53,327 bases of DNA from a virus (taxonomy: Duplodnaviria; Caudoviricetes). This document shows, piece by piece, positions 24,612 to 40,488 of the stretch; positions within the stretch are counted from its first letter, which is position 1, and every line of letters begins with the position of its first letter. The translations under genes were made by a program, and so were the position numbers. Under the pieces are notes generated by a model, which had not been told where the DNA came from, ran no database searches, and worked only from the letters and a program-made list of their open reading frames with translations. The stretch is from the IMG/VR virus record IMGVR_UViG_3300025413_000034, positions 1 to 53,327 of that record; one strand, 5' to 3'.

Positions 24612-24614
24612 TTG

Positions 24615-24685
24615 CTCCCTGGCCTGGATTCGAACCAAGATACTCGCCTCCAAAGGGCGATGTCCTACCGTTAGACGACCTGGGA
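24615..24685 (-). tRNA. tRNA-Gln(UUG)
   Basis: Cloverleaf: anticodon arm TCGCC-CTTTGGA-GGCGA, T-loop TTCGAAT, D-arm GTC...GAC; CCA not encoded. Confidence 0.9.
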
Positions 24686-26912: not shown

Positions 26913-27073
26913 TTCACGTCCTTACAGGCCTTGCAGCCACATTGTAGGTTGACACATGGGCAATCCTCGTCAGATGGCAGTAAACCGCTGCCTCTGCACC
27001 ACTCACAGGCTGTCATATGGTGATTATGTCAGAGAGAGGTTTGTTACACACTCTATGTGTTAGGCTACTATCT

Positions 27074-28093
27074 ATGAACCCATCCGTCATTCGTGAGATC
27101 TGTGGAACTGAATCAGGCTACAGAAAACATAGAAGAGAAGATGAGAAGCGCTGTGAGGAGTGCACCGTTGCTCATAACGAGCACCGCCGCAAGACATACA
27201 CCCCTGATAAGCAGAGGGCTCACAAAGAGAAGTATGAAGAGAAGGTCATCAAGCCAGCCCGCATCGCTCGCAAGAAGGCGCAGGAAGAGGCTAGGGCTAA
27301 AAAGAAAGCGGAGGCTCTGGCTCGCAAAGAGGAGAGACGACAGCGCGGCATCTTGTACAAACAAGAGAAGGAACGCCGTCGTATTGCTCATCAGGAGAAG
27401 TTACTGGCTATTGCTGAGCGTAAACGCATAGAGCGTGAGGGTATAGAGCAGCGTAAGGCTGAGAAGGCGTTACTCAGAGAGAAAAAACTCCTAGAGAAAA
27501 AACTCCTAGAGGCCGAGAATAAGCGTATAGCCAGAGAAGAGAGAAAGCAACGCTCGCTAGAACGCCAGGCTCGCCTTGCCGCTGAAAAAGAGGCTAAAGC
27601 CCTAGAGAAGGCTAAAAAGCAGGAGATGCTCAATAACCAACACGGAGTTACTGTGGGTGACTACGACCGTTGCCGTAAAAATAACAATGGCAATGCCTGC
27701 GGCCTCTGCAAGGGTGTCGTGAATGCCTATGTGTCTCAAAAATCCAAGGAACCTGCATATAAAGACAGGGAAAAAGAGTGGAGAAAGAACAACCCACATC
27801 GTAGACCCCACAGTAACCGTGAGAGAGCCATTAAACGGGGCGTGCCTACCCAGTACTACACCCGTCAACAGATCATTGACCGTGATGGTACGGACTGCTA
27901 CCTCTGCCATCTACCCCTTGACTTTGAGGCAAACCACGTCCAAGGCCAGCCTGGGTGGGAGTTATACCCTCATGTAGAGCATGTGGTGCCCCTTGCCAAG
28001 GGCGGTCATGACATCCTTGATAACGTCAAGTTAGCCCATGCCAAATGCAACATCGACAAGGGCGTGAAACTCATAGAAAAGGCTACTGTCTGA
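27074..28093 (+). CDS. HNH endonuclease with long charged coiled coil and two Zn motifs
   Basis: C-terminal CYLC...HVEHVVPLAKGG.D...N....H..CN; N-terminal CGTESGYRKH; start inferred from a leaderless TGtTAGGCT promoter. Confidence 0.85.
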   Translation: MNPSVIREICGTESGYRKHRREDEKRCEECTVAHNEHRRKTYTPDKQRAHKEKYEEKVIKPARIARKKAQEEARAKKKAEALARKEERRQRGILYKQEKERRRIAHQEKLLAIAERKRIEREGIEQRKAEKALLREKKLLEKKLLEAENKRIAREERKQRSLERQARLAAEKEAKALEKAKKQEMLNNQHGVTVGDYDRCRKNNNGNACGLCKGVVNAYVSQKSKEPAYKDREKEWRKNNPHRRPHSNRERAIKRGVPTQYYTRQQIIDRDGTDCYLCHLPLDFEANHVQGQPGWELYPHVEHVVPLAKGGHDILDNVKLAHAKCNIDKGVKLIEKATV

Positions 28094-28672
28094 CTTTTTA
28101 AGCCTCAACTCTTATGTGGTAGGGGTGGTAAAAGTGGTTTTTGGCTACTCTAAATCGAAAAAAGTCAAATGTCGAGTCTGAGCCCTGGGCCTGTTCCCTG
28201 TGCGATCGCATCTAACCATGGGGGGTGGCAGGGGGTGGCGGTGTTACCACTCTGCACCTCATTACAAGTCAGGTGCAGATGCGGTAACACGCGCATGAAT
28301 GTCACTCTGCATTATGATCTGGTGACAATCTTGATGACGATGCATCGATGCGACTCGGCTACTGTCGCAATTCGATGCAGGACTGTGCGGATACGACCAG
28401 ACTGTCAGGTCTCCGACCTGCTTCTTATCAGATGCAACCACGATCACCACTGCAACATCAACACTGTCGCATTCATTCATTCATTGCAATGTGTCCGATG
28501 TATGCGGATTAATTACATGACATCGATACACGCATTCGATCATTCATTCAATGCATCGATGTCATGTGATCAATGCAGTGAGTGATCTCTTCTCTCTCTT
28601 CTTCTTCTCTCTTGTCATTATCTGGAAGAAAAAACTCATGGCGCGATTTCGGCTGACATCGTGACATCGTGA

Positions 28673-28730
28673 TAATTGAACTTTCAACTATGTAATTGAA
28701 CATTCAACTAACTATTTGAAACTTCAACTA
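28673..28730. repeat. Three phased 18-bp palindromic direct repeats (20-bp period)
   Basis: TAATTGAACTTTCAACTA, TAATTGAACATTCAACTA, TATTTGAAACTTCAACTA. Confidence 0.9.
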
Positions 28731-28731
28731 A

Positions 28732-28758
28732 TTAGCACTCACTCACTCCGAGTGCCAA
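28732..28758. promoter_or_regulatory. CIRCE element (HrcA operator)
   Basis: TTAGCACTC-N9-GAGTGCCAA; one mismatch to the consensus TTAGCACTC-N9-GAGTGCTAA. Confidence 0.85.
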
Positions 28759-28914
28759 CGATCTGCACAATTTGGACAATCCCGACATCGCAATCACTCC
28801 ATGACTGGTCATACTTACTTCACGCATGGAATTATGCATATAAATCGGACATATTGACCCACCACATCGGTGCGCGTGTTTGTGTTTGTCCGATGTATAC
28901 GGAATACTGGGTCA

Positions 28915-29460
28915 TGAGCACACGCGGTACGCGATCAGAATCCCTCAGGGGCATCGCGCCAGAAGTGAAACAGGCTCAAGGTACGCGAGAGTCAGTCGGT
29001 GTACGCGCAGGCGGTCAGATCTCGATCTGGTCTCTGGTTCAGAATCCCCTAGGGGCAACCAGCGCGGTGACGAAAACCTCTCGTGAGTGCCTAATTACAC
29101 ATGGACTACTCGATCATTCACTCTCTTGATCGATCAGCAAGTCGGTGCGCTCGTCTCCCGAATCTCTACGGAGTAACTCGGCAGTGAAGAGACCAACTGA
29201 TGAACGCGATGAACGCGATGACCCCAGCAATGGGCGAGCGGTGAGCGGTACTTCATCAGCCAGCGTAAACCGACCCAGAGATCTACGAATGACGATAGGC
29301 GAATCAACCTTTAATTAGAGGGGCTGGTCATGGACTGCCAGCAATGGTGCAGGCGGTACTCATTCCGACCGACAGACCAGTGAAGCCAGCCCCCACTAAT
29401 TGCCACCAGATCTTCTCACGACTCGATCGTGGGCGGTTCTGGTAGCAATCTGGTGCTATC
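28915..29460 (+). ncRNA. Candidate large, highly structured non-coding RNA
   Basis: Many nested long-range helices, GCAA tetraloops and a duplicated internal-loop module; no credible CDS. Confidence 0.65.
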
Positions 29461-29480
29461 AATAACGAAAGGCAAATCCA

Positions 29481-29795
29481 ATGAACTACTTCGTAGTCGT
29501 ATGTCCAGACGGCAACTTCAGTCTCCGTCAATCAGAGTCAGCAATTTATACCCACGCATCGTGTCTAACCGATGATGAGGGCTGGGGCGTACTCGGCTTT
29601 CATAAGACCGCAAAGAGTGGCTTGTCCGCATTAAAGACCTACATCAATCGGAAAGTGAAGTACGGCAAGCCTGCGCCATATGTGAGTGGCGTTATTGAGA
29701 CCCAGCAGATCGATCGTAAGACCTACAACGATCTCAAGTCTGGAAAGATCACTGGCTCAGATCTAGTGATCGGCAAGGTCGAAACAGCCCTCTAG
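29481..29795 (+). CDS. First early-region hypothetical protein
   Basis: 104 aa; GAAAGG RBS. Confidence 0.7.
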   Translation: MNYFVVVCPDGNFSLRQSESAIYTHASCLTDDEGWGVLGFHKTAKSGLSALKTYINRKVKYGKPAPYVSGVIETQQIDRKTYNDLKSGKITGSDLVIGKVETAL

Positions 29796-29830
29796 GGCTG
29801 TCTGCTGGTCATGCCAGCACTGACGAGACC
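29777..29830 (+). ncRNA. Type II hammerhead ribozyme
   Basis: GGTC-GAAA-CAGCCC(tcta)GGGCTG-TC^-TGCTGG(tcatg)CCAGCA-CTGACGA-GACC: full catalytic core with three perfect stems. Confidence 0.92.
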
Positions 29831-29884
29831 AATGTCAGCAATCACTCGCAAACTGGTGCAGTGATCAAGTGAAAGGCAAATCCA

Positions 29885-30061
29885 ATGTCACTAACTGCAA
29901 AGGGCAAGATCAAGCAAGAATCTCGCCTCAATCTCGATAACACGATCTACGACTTCGAGATTGACTTCGACACGATCAGCGACCTTGAGGACTTCATCTC
30001 CTACAACCGCAACCAGATCGTGGAAATCCGCTTCACTGGCAAATTGAAGAGGGAGATCTAA
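29885..30061 (+). CDS. 58-aa early protein (not in ORF track)
   Basis: MSLTAKGKIKQESRLNLDN...; same GAAAGGCAAATCCAATG leader as the gene at 29481. Confidence 0.65.
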   Translation: MSLTAKGKIKQESRLNLDNTIYDFEIDFDTISDLEDFISYNRNQIVEIRFTGKLKREI

Positions 30062-38720: not shown

Positions 38721-38899
38721 GCGAATGGCTTACCTATACAGACATCGCCAAATTGTCGGGTCTCAAGTACGACACGATATACAGGCATCGAAAGCGAAAC
38801 ACCCTTCCAGAGCCAGATCTACAGATCGGCAACAAGCCCCTCTGGAGTAAGTCAACGATCGATACATGGATAACCAAACGAGAGAGCAAGGGGAACTAA
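38717..38899 (+). CDS. Excisionase/AlpA-like HTH DNA-binding protein
   Basis: LTYTDIAKLSGLKYDTIY...LPEPD..IG..PLW. Confidence 0.8.
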   Translation: MSEWLTYTDIAKLSGLKYDTIYRHRKRNTLPEPDLQIGNKPLWSKSTIDTWITKRESKGN

Positions 38900-39118
38900 T
38901 GGCGAGAAGCGCGAGCAAGTACGAGATCGATGTAACAGTTATGTCTGACCGCATCGTGGTCAACCTCACCGACAAGAAGGAGAGGACTGTCGCAGTCGGC
39001 AGTGGAGTCACGATCGTGGAGGCATTCACCGATGCCTACGATCTCATCACCACTCAGGTAGTGGAAGTCTAAGCACCCAAAGGTTGATTCGCCTACAGTC
39101 CATGTGTAATTAGGTATG

Positions 39119-39149
39119 CCCCCAGATCTCGGTCTGGGGGTTTTTATTT
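39119..39149 (+). terminator. Rho-independent terminator
   Basis: CCCCAGA-loop-TCTGGGG followed by TTTTTATTT. Confidence 0.8.
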
Positions 39150-39159
39150 GACTAACTTC

Positions 39160-39190
39160 CTACTGGTGAGTAAGGTTACTTTCCAGTAAC
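39160..39190. promoter_or_regulatory. Tandem inverted-repeat operator-like sites upstream of the integrase
   Basis: TACT-ggtg-AGTA and GTTACT-ttcc-AGTAAC. Confidence 0.45.
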
Positions 39191-39210
39191 ACACTCTGAG
39201 GGGGTGGATT

Positions 39211-40488
39211 ATGGCTTATGTAGTACAACGCGGTAAGCGGTTTACCGCCTATTATCGAGTCAACGGCAAACGGCTCTCTGCTGGCACATGGGATTCCTAT
39301 GCTCAGGCTGAGGCTTCGGGTATGCGTGCTGAGGTTCTGGGCGTTAGCGAGCCTTCTGAGGCTGATTCCAGCCTATCTGATTACTTCGACAAGTGGATTC
39401 AAACGGCTGATCTCATGCCGATCACTAAGAAGAACTACGCCATGACCTTTCGAACTTATGTTCGAGATCGCCTAGGCTCAAACCAAGTAACTTCCATCTC
39501 CACCCGCCAGATTCGAAAGTTACTTAATGACCTCCGACTAGAGGGAGTCAAGCCAGCCACTCTGGGTCAGGTCAAGGCGTGCCTAGGGTCAGCCTTCGCC
39601 TCTCTCGTGGAGAGTGAGGAGATCTCGGTCAATCCCACCCATGGCATCAAGGTCAGGGTCAACCAGCCAGATCTCCACAATGTCCTTGAGCCTGCCGACT
39701 TCAAGAAGATACTAAGTAACTTGCCTGAAAACGGGGCCTCAGGTGCGAAGTTACTTGCCAAGATGCTCGTGATCTCTGGGGCTCGCTTCGGTGAGGCTAC
39801 GGAACTTCGGGTCAAGGACTTCGACTTCAACTCTGGGGAAGTCTTTATCCAGAGAAGAGTGAGCGAATTGGGCAAATCCTACAATTCTGGGGAGCGATTC
39901 AAGGTGATCGATGCCACCAAGTCAGGCAGAAAACGCTCTGTAACCCTCTCTAAAGCCCTATTACAAGAGATTCAGGACTATGTCCTTGCTAATTCGCTGC
40001 GGAAAGATGACCTGCTCTTCCCGATCTCGATAGTATTAACGGCAGGTAAACTAGAACCTTCACGCGAGCAGGACACTCTGGGGCAGTACGCCTTAGGGGG
40101 AAAACGCTTCAAGCATGGAACGCTCTACTCCTATACCCATGGGGGTTGCCGATGCCAAGCCTGTAGCCAGACGAGACGAGAGTATCGGAAGGCTAAGGGC
40201 AAGGCTGAGGGTAGGCAGACCATGACCTACGAAACAAGCCACTTACCGCGTGGAGTATGGAGAAATACATGGAACAAAGCAATAGCCAAATCAGGAATTG
40301 GCTGGACTCCTAGAACTCACGATCTCCGTCATGCCAACGCTACCCAGTTACTAAAAAATGGGGTAGATGTACATGAGGTCAAAGAGAGACTAGGTCACCA
40401 GTCAATTAAGACTACGGAGCGGTACTTACACCGCCTCCGTCACCAGCAGTCAACGGCAGGAGAACTCGCCAATGACTTTATGGAGTGA
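39211..40488 (+). CDS. int: Tyrosine integrase/recombinase
   Basis: GARFGE, TKSG, HDLRH, LGH and TERY catalytic residues; N-terminal arm- and core-binding domains. Confidence 0.92.
   Translation: MAYVVQRGKRFTAYYRVNGKRLSAGTWDSYAQAEASGMRAEVLGVSEPSEADSSLSDYFDKWIQTADLMPITKKNYAMTFRTYVRDRLGSNQVTSISTRQIRKLLNDLRLEGVKPATLGQVKACLGSAFASLVESEEISVNPTHGIKVRVNQPDLHNVLEPADFKKILSNLPENGASGAKLLAKMLVISGARFGEATELRVKDFDFNSGEVFIQRRVSELGKSYNSGERFKVIDATKSGRKRSVTLSKALLQEIQDYVLANSLRKDDLLFPISIVLTAGKLEPSREQDTLGQYALGGKRFKHGTLYSYTHGGCRCQACSQTRREYRKAKGKAEGRQTMTYETSHLPRGVWRNTWNKAIAKSGIGWTPRTHDLRHANATQLLKNGVDVHEVKERLGHQSIKTTERYLHRLRHQQSTAGELANDFME

What the first reader, a model, noticed from the sequence alone, without database searches (positions are those of the whole stretch)
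28915..29460. Approximately 550-nt ornate structured RNA heading the early operon
Seen, nested helices: GTCGGTgTACGC(28995-29006)/GCGTAaACCGAC(29263-29274); GGTCT(29029)/AGACC(29190); CTGATGAA(29197)/TTCATCAG(29252), enclosing tandem GATGA/GTGA kink-turn-like loops; GGGGCTGG(29320)/CCAGCCCC(29386), closed by AATTAG/CTAATT; TTGCCACCAGA(29400)/TCTGGTAGCAA(29438). Also seen: two CCA-GCAA-TGG tetraloop hairpins and possible pseudoknots CGCGAGAG(28984)/CTCTCGTG(29078) and TGAGTGCC(29084)/GGTACTCA(29355). I cannot assign it to a family. Size and complexity recall phage GOLLD and ROOL RNAs, but it may be new.
Basis: partly seen in the sequence, partly recalled or inferred. Interest (0 to 1): 0.82.

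Follow-up and report, generated by a model that had tools for sequence, protein, structure and literature searches.

The report
New phage leader RNA pairing operon end
The flagged stretch is a real, strongly conserved, many-helix RNA of no catalogued family that starts this uncultured lake phage's early transcript, and its unpaired linkers are exactly complementary to a short site 10 kb downstream at the end of the same operon, just before the integrase gene.

Summary
Real and new. Window 28915-29483 is the non-coding 5' part of the rightward early transcript. It has no Rfam 15 match. Homologues occur once per record in at least three clades of uncultured freshwater phages, probably actinophages.

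Covariation is strong:
- Domains D1+D2: 36 pairs, 16 with double changes. On a model-fitted alignment of 32 distinct rows, 31 of 37 pairs.
- D3+P10: 53 pairs, 17 with double changes.
- Cap-hairpin stems: 6 of 7 pairs.
- No shuffle of 500 reached the observed covariation score or paired share in any of these tests.

Whole-region folding energy is not better than shuffles (z -0.36).

Both long-range helices into 29190-29274 fail. About 190 nt (29108-29295) is a lineage-specific expansion.

Key addition: linker segments 29090-29107 and 29296-29312 are perfect reverse complements of one contiguous site, 39079-39114. That site lies 3 nt before the operon's terminator and upstream of the integrase gene. 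The same layout, with different co-varying sequences, is found in 8 of 8 related records that reach the integrase gene.

Function is untested. Best guess: 5'-3' pairing that closes or processes the early transcript.

The parts
28880..28908 (+). Putative sigma-70-type early promoter: -35 at 28880-28885, -10-like hexamer at 28903-28908, start near 28915
   Evidence: Inference from reading. A TAnnnT- or AATnnT-type hexamer lies exactly 6 nt before helix P1 in all 9 clade A and all 6 clade C sequences read. The consensus scan did not flag it. No transcript data.
28916..28977 (+). Domain D1. P1 28916-19/28974-77; P1a 28921-23/28965-67; P1b 28925-27/28959-62; P2 28930-35/28953-58; capped by the conserved 18-nt motif 28936-28953, which holds a 3-bp mini-hairpin 28942-44/28949-51 with a YNMG-type tetraloop.
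   Evidence: Coordinates. P1 covaries. The P2-type flanking stem has 6 of 7 pairs with double changes in 19 distinct hairpins. P1a is invariant. The cap is replaced by a plain hairpin in L032 and L049 and by another cap in L063.
28980..29091 (+). Domain D2. P3 outer 28980-84/29087-91; P3 inner 28987-91/29078-82; P3b 28996-98/29071-73; P4 29004-08/29062-66; side hairpin P4a 29016-20/29025-29; P5 29035-39/29057-61; second copy of the cap motif at 29040-29057.
   Evidence: On the model-fitted alignment every pair of P3, P3b and P4, and 4 of 5 pairs of P5, show double changes. Some relatives carry a variant cap.
29090..29107 (+). Linker segment 1, unpaired in the leader's own fold. Exact reverse complement of 39097-39114.
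   Evidence: 18 of 18; I3, 100%; duplex -33.6 kcal/mol, best of 1632 windows.
29108..29295 (+). Lineage-specific expansion, looped out between the two linker segments. Predicted three-way junction closed by 29141-29151/29262-29274. It holds a degenerate cap-like arm (29153-29193) and a hairpin 29197-29259 with two tandem kink-turn-like loops and a GNRA tetraloop.
   Evidence: Absent from L038, L019, L034, L036, L013, L035 and L052; a different insert sits at the same place in L023. Fold z -1.7 and -1.9. Identical bar one base in W, L032 and L049, so covariation cannot be tested.
29296..29312 (+). Linker segment 2. Exact reverse complement of 39079-39095.
   Evidence: 17 of 17; I2, 22 nt at 91%; duplex -28.0 kcal/mol, best of 1632 windows.
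29313..29401 (+). P6 (29313-18/29396-401) and domain D3. P7 29320-28/29385-93; P8o 29334-37/29378-81; hairpin P8 29338-40/29345-47; hairpin P9 29348-56/29365-74 with a conserved 8-nt loop.
   Evidence: P7 covaries at 7 of 9 pairs in clade A and at all 9 across 18 sequences of clades A, B and L014. P8o and P9 covary between clades. Fold z -2.9.
29399..29449 (+). Long hairpin P10 (29399-29420 with 29428-29449).
   Evidence: 7 of 21 pairs with double changes; z -4.8. Its outer 3 pairs compete with the 3' strand of P6.
29451..29483 (+). Translation-initiation module. A weak hairpin (29451-60 with 29467-80) overlaps the ribosome-binding site (about 29467-29472) and abuts the start codon 29481-29483 of the first gene.
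   Evidence: all pairs invariant, so untested; z -0.8. The last 17 nt recur exactly at 29871-29887, ahead of the next gene.
39079..39114 (+). Distal site in the 3' untranslated end of the early operon, complementary to both linker segments.
   Evidence: It lies after the last small ORF 38866-39072. Counterparts sit in the same place in 7 other records.
39118..39141 (+). Intrinsic terminator ending the early operon. It is followed by a promoter-like and operator-like region and the tyrosine integrase gene 39211-40488.
   Evidence: 10-bp stem, T-run. (PF00589, E 8e-25). The promoter reading is inferred.

Best explanation
Shown:
- Window 28915-29483 is the non-coding, single-copy, promoter-proximal 5' part of the roughly 10-kb rightward early transcript.
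- It belongs to an uncatalogued family of large multi-domain structured RNAs: D1, D2, linker, D3, P10 and a translation-initiation module.
- In this phage a 190-nt expansion is looped out of the linker.
- The unpaired linkers between the domains are complementary to one contiguous 36-nt site at the 3' end of the same operon. That site lies 3 nt before its terminator and just upstream of the integrase promoter region and gene.
- This layout recurs, with different co-varying sequences, in every related record that reaches the integrase gene.

Inferred mechanism:
- The folded domains hold the linkers open.
- When RNA polymerase reaches the operon end, the nascent 3' site zips onto the linkers of the leader. 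This may be the leader of the same transcript or of another copy. The result is a 24-36-bp helix flanked by D2 and D3.
- That helix closes the early transcript.
- It most likely serves as a processing or termination-control signal. A helix this long is a typical RNase III substrate.
- The signal would separate integrase expression from the early promoter and set the lifetime of the early message.
- Cutting in the linker would also free D1-D2. In the third clade that release is achieved instead by a hammerhead at the leader's end.
For: No known family:
- Rfam 15 gave no match in the window or in homologues.

Non-coding:
- No reading frame stays open across the leader in 9 homologues.
- No Pfam hit for the spurious ORFs.

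Structure:
- 91-97% of cells paired. The partner-slid controls gave 28-56% for the cap stems and 29-44% for the domain alignments.
- 16 of 36, 17 of 53 and 31 of 37 pairs carry double changes.
- 0 of 500 shuffles reached the observed covariation score or paired share in any of the four tests.
- About 48 G-U cells against 25 unpaired cells favour the + strand.

Family spread:
- Model R1 (D1+D2) finds clade A at E 1e-33 to 1e-50, clade C at 1e-13 to 1e-16, L014 at 2e-9 and clade B near 2e-3.
- Model R2 (D3+P10) finds clades A and B and L014, but 0 of 6 clade C loci.
- One copy per record in 8 of 8 records searched whole.

Long-range pairing in the window:
- 18 of 18 and 17 of 17 nt match, onto adjacent halves of one site.
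- Duplex energies are -33.6 and -28.0 kcal/mol. Each is the best of 1632 windows, about 8-10 sd from the mean.
- At most 1 of 100 shuffles reached a 15-nt exact complement.

Long-range pairing in relatives:
- G001: 26 of 29. L055: 27 of 29.
- G006: two segments flanking its own insert.
- G004, G003 and L016: three segments, placed after D2, before D3 and after D3, on one contiguous site.
- G002: 8+11+7 nt contiguous.
- The site always lies just before an integrase homologue.
- At least five sequence versions exist, each with its own matching distal site.

Operon context:
- No other terminator-like site on the + strand lies between the leader and 39118.
Against: - No transcript data exist: no RNA run holds the stretch. 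The start, the extent and the co-transcription of leader and distal site are therefore inferred.
- Complementarity in DNA cannot by itself tell RNA pairing from an inverted DNA repeat. The mismatches in G001 and L055 do not discriminate between the two.
- The distal site does not overlap the terminator stem, so a direct effect on termination is not obvious.
- G001 and L055 show no clear terminator after the site.
- RNase III cleavage is an assumption.
- In clade B the single segments are only 10-12 nt. Such lengths also occur by chance. Only their adjacency and position make them convincing.
- Clade C shares D1-D2 but shows neither D3, nor the pairing, nor a nearby integrase homologue. The pairing therefore cannot be the whole function of the conserved core.
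- Whole-region folding energy is no better than shuffles.
Confidence: 0.5

Rival explanations
1. Self-limiting processive antitermination. D1-D2 binds the transcribing RNA polymerase, as HK022 put RNA does, and carries it through the 10-kb operon. At the operon end the nascent distal site pairs with the linker next to D2, loosens it, and restores termination before the integrase gene.
For: - Promoter-proximal position at the very start of the early transcript in all clades.
- D1-D2 is the only part shared by all three clades.
- The pairing overlaps the 3' strand of D2's basal helix by 2 nt here and by about 5-7 nt in G001 and L055.
- The distal site lies 3-13 nt before a terminator in the window, in clade B and in G002.
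- A cut behind the element, as in clade C, need not abolish such a function. That put RNA is cleaved downstream without loss of activity is my recollection, not checked here.
Against: - No terminator-like site that would need suppressing lies inside the operon.
- The RNA is six to eight times larger than put RNA as I recall it.
- Nothing here tests polymerase binding.
Confidence: 0.15
2. A free-standing, trans-acting phage RNA in the manner of GOLLD or ROOL: a scaffold or decoy for a host or phage protein, made first after infection. The link to the message is incidental and the distal complement is a secondary feature.
For: - Size, multi-domain architecture and swappable peripheral caps.
- In clade C a complete type-II hammerhead core sits at the leader's 3' end, 15-25 nt before the first gene. 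It would release the leader.
- The genes that follow the leader differ between relatives while the leader is kept.
Against: - It is always at +1 of the early operon and always runs straight into a conserved translation-initiation module in clade A.
- There is no terminator at its end.
- The co-varying distal site shows that it interacts with its own operon.
Confidence: 0.15
3. Cis-regulator of the first cistron only: a riboswitch-like or protein-binding leader whose 3' hairpins control ribosome access.
For: - An invariant module of hairpin, ribosome-binding site and start codon follows P10 in 9 of 9 clade A sequences.
- It is duplicated ahead of the next gene in the window.
Against: - The hairpin is weak (z -0.8) and has no variation to test.
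- Clade B lacks it (by reading).
- In clade C the leader would be cut off before the first gene.
- No known riboswitch matches.
- D1 and D2 share only their caps, not their cores, so they are not tandem aptamers.
Confidence: 0.1
4. DNA-level feature: the linker and the distal site are inverted repeats used by the adjacent tyrosine recombinase to invert the 10-kb early segment.
For: Inverted repeats flank the segment, and a tyrosine recombinase gene lies just outside one repeat.
Against: - The left repeat is split by 118-290 nt of structured insert in the window, G006, clade B and G002, while the right one is contiguous.
- All 8 records have the same orientation.
- Contigs of 4 DNA runs show no strand-changing joint. 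Contigs drop rare variants, so this last point is weak.
Confidence: 0.06

Closest known systems
GOLLD, ROOL and OLE: large ornate bacterial or phage-associated RNAs (PMC12286853; search listing and start of abstract only)
   Same: Several hundred nucleotides, many helices, phage-encoded, no assigned biochemical function.
   Different: No covariance-model match. This RNA is the 5' end of a message rather than a separate gene. It pairs with the 3' end of its own operon. Nothing here tests whether it forms multimers.
5'-3' UTR pairing within bacterial mRNAs, such as icaR of Staphylococcus aureus. Recalled, and named in earlier scan note e1-6027729; the paper was not read here.
   Same: A 5' untranslated segment is complementary to the 3' untranslated end of the same transcript. 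The known case is an RNase III target.
   Different: Here the ends are about 10 kb apart across some 25 genes. The pairing does not cover the ribosome-binding site. It uses two or three linker segments separated by folded domains. It is embedded in a 400-700-nt conserved structure.
Lambda sib retroregulation of int (recalled textbook knowledge)
   Same: An RNA element next to the integrase gene that only transcripts from the early promoter can complete. It would let early read-through transcripts and integrase-promoter transcripts be treated differently.
   Different: sib is a local hairpin downstream of int. Here the helix is formed with the far 5' leader and lies upstream of int.
HK022 put RNA and leader-encoded immunity RNAs of P4 (CI) and P1 (c4) (recalled)
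   Same: Structured RNA at the head of a phage early operon that acts on its own transcription unit. In P4 and P1 it pairs with complementary sites in the same transcript.
   Different: Those RNAs are about 70 nt and their targets lie within a few hundred nt. There is no sequence or model similarity.
Hammerhead-ended phage leaders and hammerheads flanking phage genes (Perreault et al. 2011, PMC3088659; passages read)
   Same: In clade C the leader ends in a type-II hammerhead core just before the first early gene, like the HF1/HF2 case described there. The window has one such core at 29777-29830.
   Different: In the window and in clades A and B no ribozyme separates the leader from the first gene. 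The paper describes no conserved large RNA upstream.

Membership tests
Any Rfam 15 family (GOLLD, ROOL, HEARO, group I/II introns, riboswitches, T-box and the rest) | Covariance-model match at or near the family's gathering score | tested here: not met
   No match in 28915-29483 at gathering or at E up to 10. None in seven homologous loci at E up to 1 or in L065 at E up to 10.
Hammerhead ribozyme type II (RF02276), for 29777-29833 only | Model score at or above gathering (37 bits) | tested here: not met
   32.2 bits, E 2.9e-4. Two relatives score 33.6 and 34.6 bits.
Hammerhead ribozyme type II (RF02276), for 29777-29833 only | Both conserved core boxes, the cleavage triplet and three stems in type-II order | tested here: met
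   My pattern-and-stem search found them at 29777-29830 and in 14 further distinct instances whose stem sequences differ. The Rfam alignment agrees.
Hammerhead ribozyme type II (RF02276), for 29777-29833 only | Self-cleavage | not testable with these tools
   Needs in vitro transcription.
Kink-turn, for the loops in hairpin 29197-29259 | Canonical stem, 3-nt bulge, then tandem sheared G-A pairs on both strands | tested here: inconclusive
   The letters fit the consensus as I recall it (read). There is no variation among the 3 records that carry it and no structural test.
mRNAs with 5'-3' UTR pairing | Complementarity between the 5' leader and the 3' untranslated end of one transcription unit | tested here: met
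   Also seen in 7 other records. That both ends lie on one transcript is inferred.
mRNAs with 5'-3' UTR pairing | The pairing masks the ribosome-binding site (icaR type) | tested here: not met
   The linker segments end at 29312. The ribosome-binding site is near 29467.
put-type antiterminator RNA | Binds RNA polymerase and suppresses downstream terminators | not testable with these tools
   Only the promoter-proximal position is met.
Invertible DNA segment | Both orientations present in the population | tested here: not met
   8 of 8 records share one orientation. No strand-changing joint in contigs of 4 DNA runs. Contigs can miss rare forms.

The most novel reading that the evidence does not exclude
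A bipartite RNA device with no described precedent. The 5' leader is an incomplete fold whose inter-domain linkers are stitched together by a 'splint' encoded 8-10 kb downstream at the operon's 3' end. The mature multi-helix junction (D2 / long-range helix / D3) can therefore form only once the whole early operon has been transcribed. It would act as a transcription-completion sensor that resets the polymerase or triggers processing at the boundary with the integrase gene.
Probability: 0.25. Interest if true: 0.92.

Novelty: categorically new. Interest (0 to 1): 0.85.

Why it matters
Large structured RNAs of unknown function are rare, and each has opened new biology. This one has unusually clean comparative support. 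It also comes with a concrete, testable interaction: a co-varying pairing between the start and the end of a 10-kb polycistronic phage transcript, placed at the early-operon/integrase boundary of temperate phages. My two literature searches and Rfam turned up nothing of this kind for DNA phages or bacteria.

It would give a handle on two questions:
- How early transcription and the integration decision are coupled in freshwater, probably actinobacterial, phages.
- What the long 'ornate leaders' do that keep turning up ahead of phage early genes, here and in other windows of this scan.

Tried and rejected
- **Known RNA family.** Rejected.
- **tRNA- or tmRNA-like element in the leader.** None; the only tRNA is at 24614-24685.
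- **Protein-coding region.** Rejected. The 137-aa and 57-aa ORFs have no Pfam hit, and no frame is conserved.
- **Relatives among cultured phages.**
  - BLAST of the region against the phage collection found no match.
  - The terminase's nearest isolates are Streptomyces phages at 52% identity.
- **Host clue.** A scan of genome contigs with the cap motif gave 5 hits that all look like chance.
- **Relatives through the first gene's protein.** None.
- **Expression.** No RNA holder is listed among 24 runs.
- **DNA inversion.** No strand-changing joints in the contigs of 4 runs. Contigs show presence only, not absence.
- **Kissing of the two palindromic caps.** Considered and dropped. The caps of L063, L032 and L049 are replaced, and pairing between cap 1 and cap 2 is imperfect in several sequences.
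- **Alternative pairing of P10's 5' strand with the invariant stretch after P10.** Fails in L052.
- **More copies of the cap motif elsewhere in the window.** None.
- **A third D1-D2-like module in the expansion.** Model R1 does not recognise one at E up to 1.
- **Steps that failed.**
  - The full duplex-energy scan of five records timed out. I replaced it with a minus-strand BLAST search.
  - Relatives cannot be drawn for a virus record.
  - A tabulation of hammerhead stem pairs was not run, so the hammerhead stems are described only.
- **Supplements.** The supplementary alignments of Perreault et al. could not be seen. They might already list some of these hammerheads.

Full report
**Setting**

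The window is a 53-kb fragment of an uncultured virus record, estimated at about half complete.
- It encodes portal, terminase, major head protein, ribonucleotide reductase, a queuine-tRNA-ribosyltransferase-like protein and a tyrosine integrase.
- The terminase is closest (52% identity) to Streptomyces phages.
- The HNH protein upstream of the finding has a WhiB-like N-terminus.
- DNA holders are freshwater metagenomes.
- The host is therefore probably a freshwater actinobacterium. This is an inference.

The finding lies in an ORF-poor gap (28586-29480). Two + strand genes, the HNH gene and a 138-aa ORF, lie upstream. A run of small + strand early genes follows and ends at a terminator at 39118-39141.

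**Is it a known RNA?**

No.
- At gathering thresholds Rfam 15 finds only a tRNA in the window.
- At E up to 10 nothing falls inside 28915-29483. The only notable hit is a sub-threshold type-II hammerhead at 29777-29833.
- Homologous leaders give nothing either.

**Homologues**

- The upstream HNH protein led to related loci. BLAST between them showed partial conservation of the gap.
- An 18-nt motif that occurs twice in the window (28936 and 29040) was used as a pattern:
  - 16 viral loci;
  - 30 metagenome loci, 7 of them plainly unrelated;
  - 5 chance hits in prokaryote genomes.
- A variant of the motif found six more viral loci.
- Reading these shows three clades of long non-coding leaders ahead of early genes:
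  - clade A: the window and 8 other full-length sequences, 399-623 nt from about 55 nt upstream of the first helix to the start codon;
  - clade B, plus the intermediate L014: AT-rich, about 650-800 nt;
  - clade C: about 450 nt, ending in a hammerhead.

**Structure**

RNAalifold on the nine clade A leaders recovers a consistent fold. I counted pairs on three MAFFT alignments and one model-fitted alignment.

| Test | Sequences | Pairs | Cells paired | Shuffled mean | Pairs with double changes | Slid-partner controls |
|---|---|---|---|---|---|---|
| Stems flanking the cap motif | 19 distinct hairpins | 10 (7 in the flanking stem) | 91% | 65% | 6 of 7 (stem) | 28-56% |
| D1+D2 | 9 (8 distinct) | 36 | 95.4% | 82.6% | 16 | 30-40% |
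| D3+P10+initiation module | 9 | 53 | 97.5% | 89.7% | 17 | 29-44% |
| D1+D2, fitted to model R1 | 32 distinct rows | 37 | 96.9% | 73.4% | 31 | 31-40% |

- In some searches no shuffle of 500 reached the observed value on any of the five measures. In one search none did for cells paired, cells with double changes or the covariation score.
- The model-fitted alignment leans towards its own structure.
- G-U cells (about 48) outnumber unpaired cells (25). This fits an RNA read from the + strand.
- D3 compared across 18 sequences of clades A, B and L014 covaries at all nine P7 pairs. P8o and P9 also show clade-specific double changes.
- Invariant, and so untested: P1a, P1b (within clade A) and the initiation hairpin.

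**Energy**

- By domain only D3 (-2.9) and P10 (-4.8) stand out.
- I give this less weight than covariation, but it is a result against the reading.

- The stretch 29108-29295 is missing from the closest relatives and is replaced by a different insert in L023.
- In the fold of the insert alone their 3' arms pair locally.
- The double kink-turn-like hairpin is there as described. It is identical in the three records that have it.
- The cap motifs are peripheral. Cap 1 is replaced by a plain hairpin in L032 and L049, which are 96-97% identical to the window elsewhere. L063 carries a different cap.

**Start of the RNA**

- In all 9 clade A and 6 clade C sequences read, a -10-like hexamer ends exactly 6 nt before P1. 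A -35-like hexamer lies 17 nt further up in several of them.
- The tool's consensus scan does not flag it, and there are no transcript data.

**Copy number and spread**

- R1 (D1+D2) finds one copy per record in 8 of 8 records searched whole. Two of them are estimated at 90% complete or more.
- R1 recognises all three clades.
- R2 (D3+P10) recognises clades A and B and L014, but none of 6 clade C loci.

**The distal complement**

I tested this here.

In the window:
- 29090-29107 is the exact reverse complement of 39097-39114, and 29296-29312 of 39079-39095.
- The two leader segments are the flanks of the lineage-specific expansion.
- Their targets are adjacent halves of one 36-nt site in the 3' untranslated end of the operon, after the last small ORF. 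The site lies 3 nt before the terminator.
- Duplex energies are -33.6 and -28.0 kcal/mol. Each is the best of 1632 windows along the operon.

In relatives, every record that reaches an integrase homologue shows the same arrangement:
- G001 (29 nt, 26 matched) and L055 (27 of 29), with a different linker sequence.
- G006, with two segments flanking its own insert.
- G004, G003 and L016 of clade B. Three 10-12-nt segments lie after D2, just before D3 and just after D3. They pair in reverse order with one contiguous site.
- G002, with 8+11+7 contiguous nucleotides in the same three places.
- That makes 8 of 8, in at least five sequence versions.
- Single 12-mers also occur by chance. It is the adjacency, the colinearity and the fixed position that carry the argument.
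- In clade C I found no integrase homologue in 4 loci and no convincing complement.

**RNA or DNA?**

- One arm is split by 118-290 nt of folded insert while the other is contiguous.
- All records share one orientation, and contigs of four DNA runs show no strand-changing joint.
- This favours RNA pairing over a recombination site, but does not prove it.

**Mechanism**

Shown:
- a conserved multi-domain fold;
- unpaired linkers;
- a co-varying complement at the operon end, next to the terminator and the integrase promoter region.

Inferred:
- The two ends meet in RNA and form a 24-36-bp helix between D2 and D3.
- I think it most likely (about one in two, counting the identity claims) that this helix marks completed early transcripts for processing or for control at the integrase boundary.
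- RNase III is the obvious enzyme for a helix of that length.
- The rivals are a put-like antiterminator that is reset at the operon end, a free trans-acting RNA, a first-cistron regulator, and DNA inversion. They are listed with their tests.
- In clade C a hammerhead core sits at the leader's end. This has a precedent in the HF1/HF2 case (Perreault et al. 2011, passages read). It suggests that freeing D1-D2 from the message is part of the design, achieved there by a ribozyme.

**Literature**

- Two full-text searches found no description of this RNA. A search by words cannot exclude one.
- Other notes of this scan report promoter / large leader / hammerhead layouts in other uncultured phages. 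They are unchecked leads.

**Verdict**

A real, new family of large phage leader RNA with a conserved long-range partner. The function is untested.

Noticed in passing
window 29777-29830 (+): A complete type-II hammerhead core. It overlaps the stop codon of the first gene (29481-29795) and is followed by a hairpin (about 29818-29840) that would sequester one core box. Rfam scores it at 32.2 bits against a gathering score of 37.
   Followed up: partly
window 29481-29887; L038 and L032: Relative to L038, the first gene, the hammerhead and a second exact copy of the 17-nt initiation module (29871-29887) look like an inserted cassette. In L032 the hammerhead-plus-module unit sits one gene further down. 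The genes directly behind the leader differ between relatives.
   Followed up: partly
L064 (five), L063 and L065 (two each), L062, L066, L067, L051, L032 (one each): Many intergenic type-II hammerhead cores occur in the early regions of clade C phages, with differing stem sequences. Rfam scores only two of them, below threshold.
   Followed up: partly
window 29804-29832 versus 29323-29345 and 29181-29196: The hammerhead's stem I and core share 10-16-nt strings with the 5' part of D3 and with the expansion. R2 gives a weak hit over 29781-29887 (13.7 bits). This may be a trace of recombination between the leader and intergenic modules.
   Followed up: no
window 28673-28730 (+): Three copies of a 13-15-bp palindrome-like site lie upstream of the leader's promoter region. 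One copy recurs next to a minus-strand gene in L009 and L010. They look like repressor operators.
   Followed up: no
window 28771-28779 and 28844-28852: A 9-nt motif is repeated 73 nt apart upstream of the leader. The second copy lies in a conserved promoter-like stretch shared with L002, L013, L019 and L034. This may be a second, upstream promoter or a binding site.
   Followed up: no
window 39148-39200: Between the terminator and the integrase start lie a -35/-10-like pair and two to three copies of an inverted-repeat operator-like motif. The arrangement is conserved in G001, L055, clade B and G002.
   Followed up: no
window 27017-28093 (+): A 358-aa protein with a WhiB-like N-terminus (residues 20-66) and a C-terminal HNH nuclease domain. 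This is an unusual fusion, and it hints at an actinobacterial host.
   Followed up: no
window 24614-24685 (-): tRNA-Gln (anticodon TTG), the only tRNA in the window.
   Followed up: no
window 39072-39137 in run X13; loose ends at 39072 and 39137 in runs X1 and X11: Some strains in the same lakes carry different letters exactly over the distal site and terminator. This fits strain-specific linker/site pairs.
   Followed up: no
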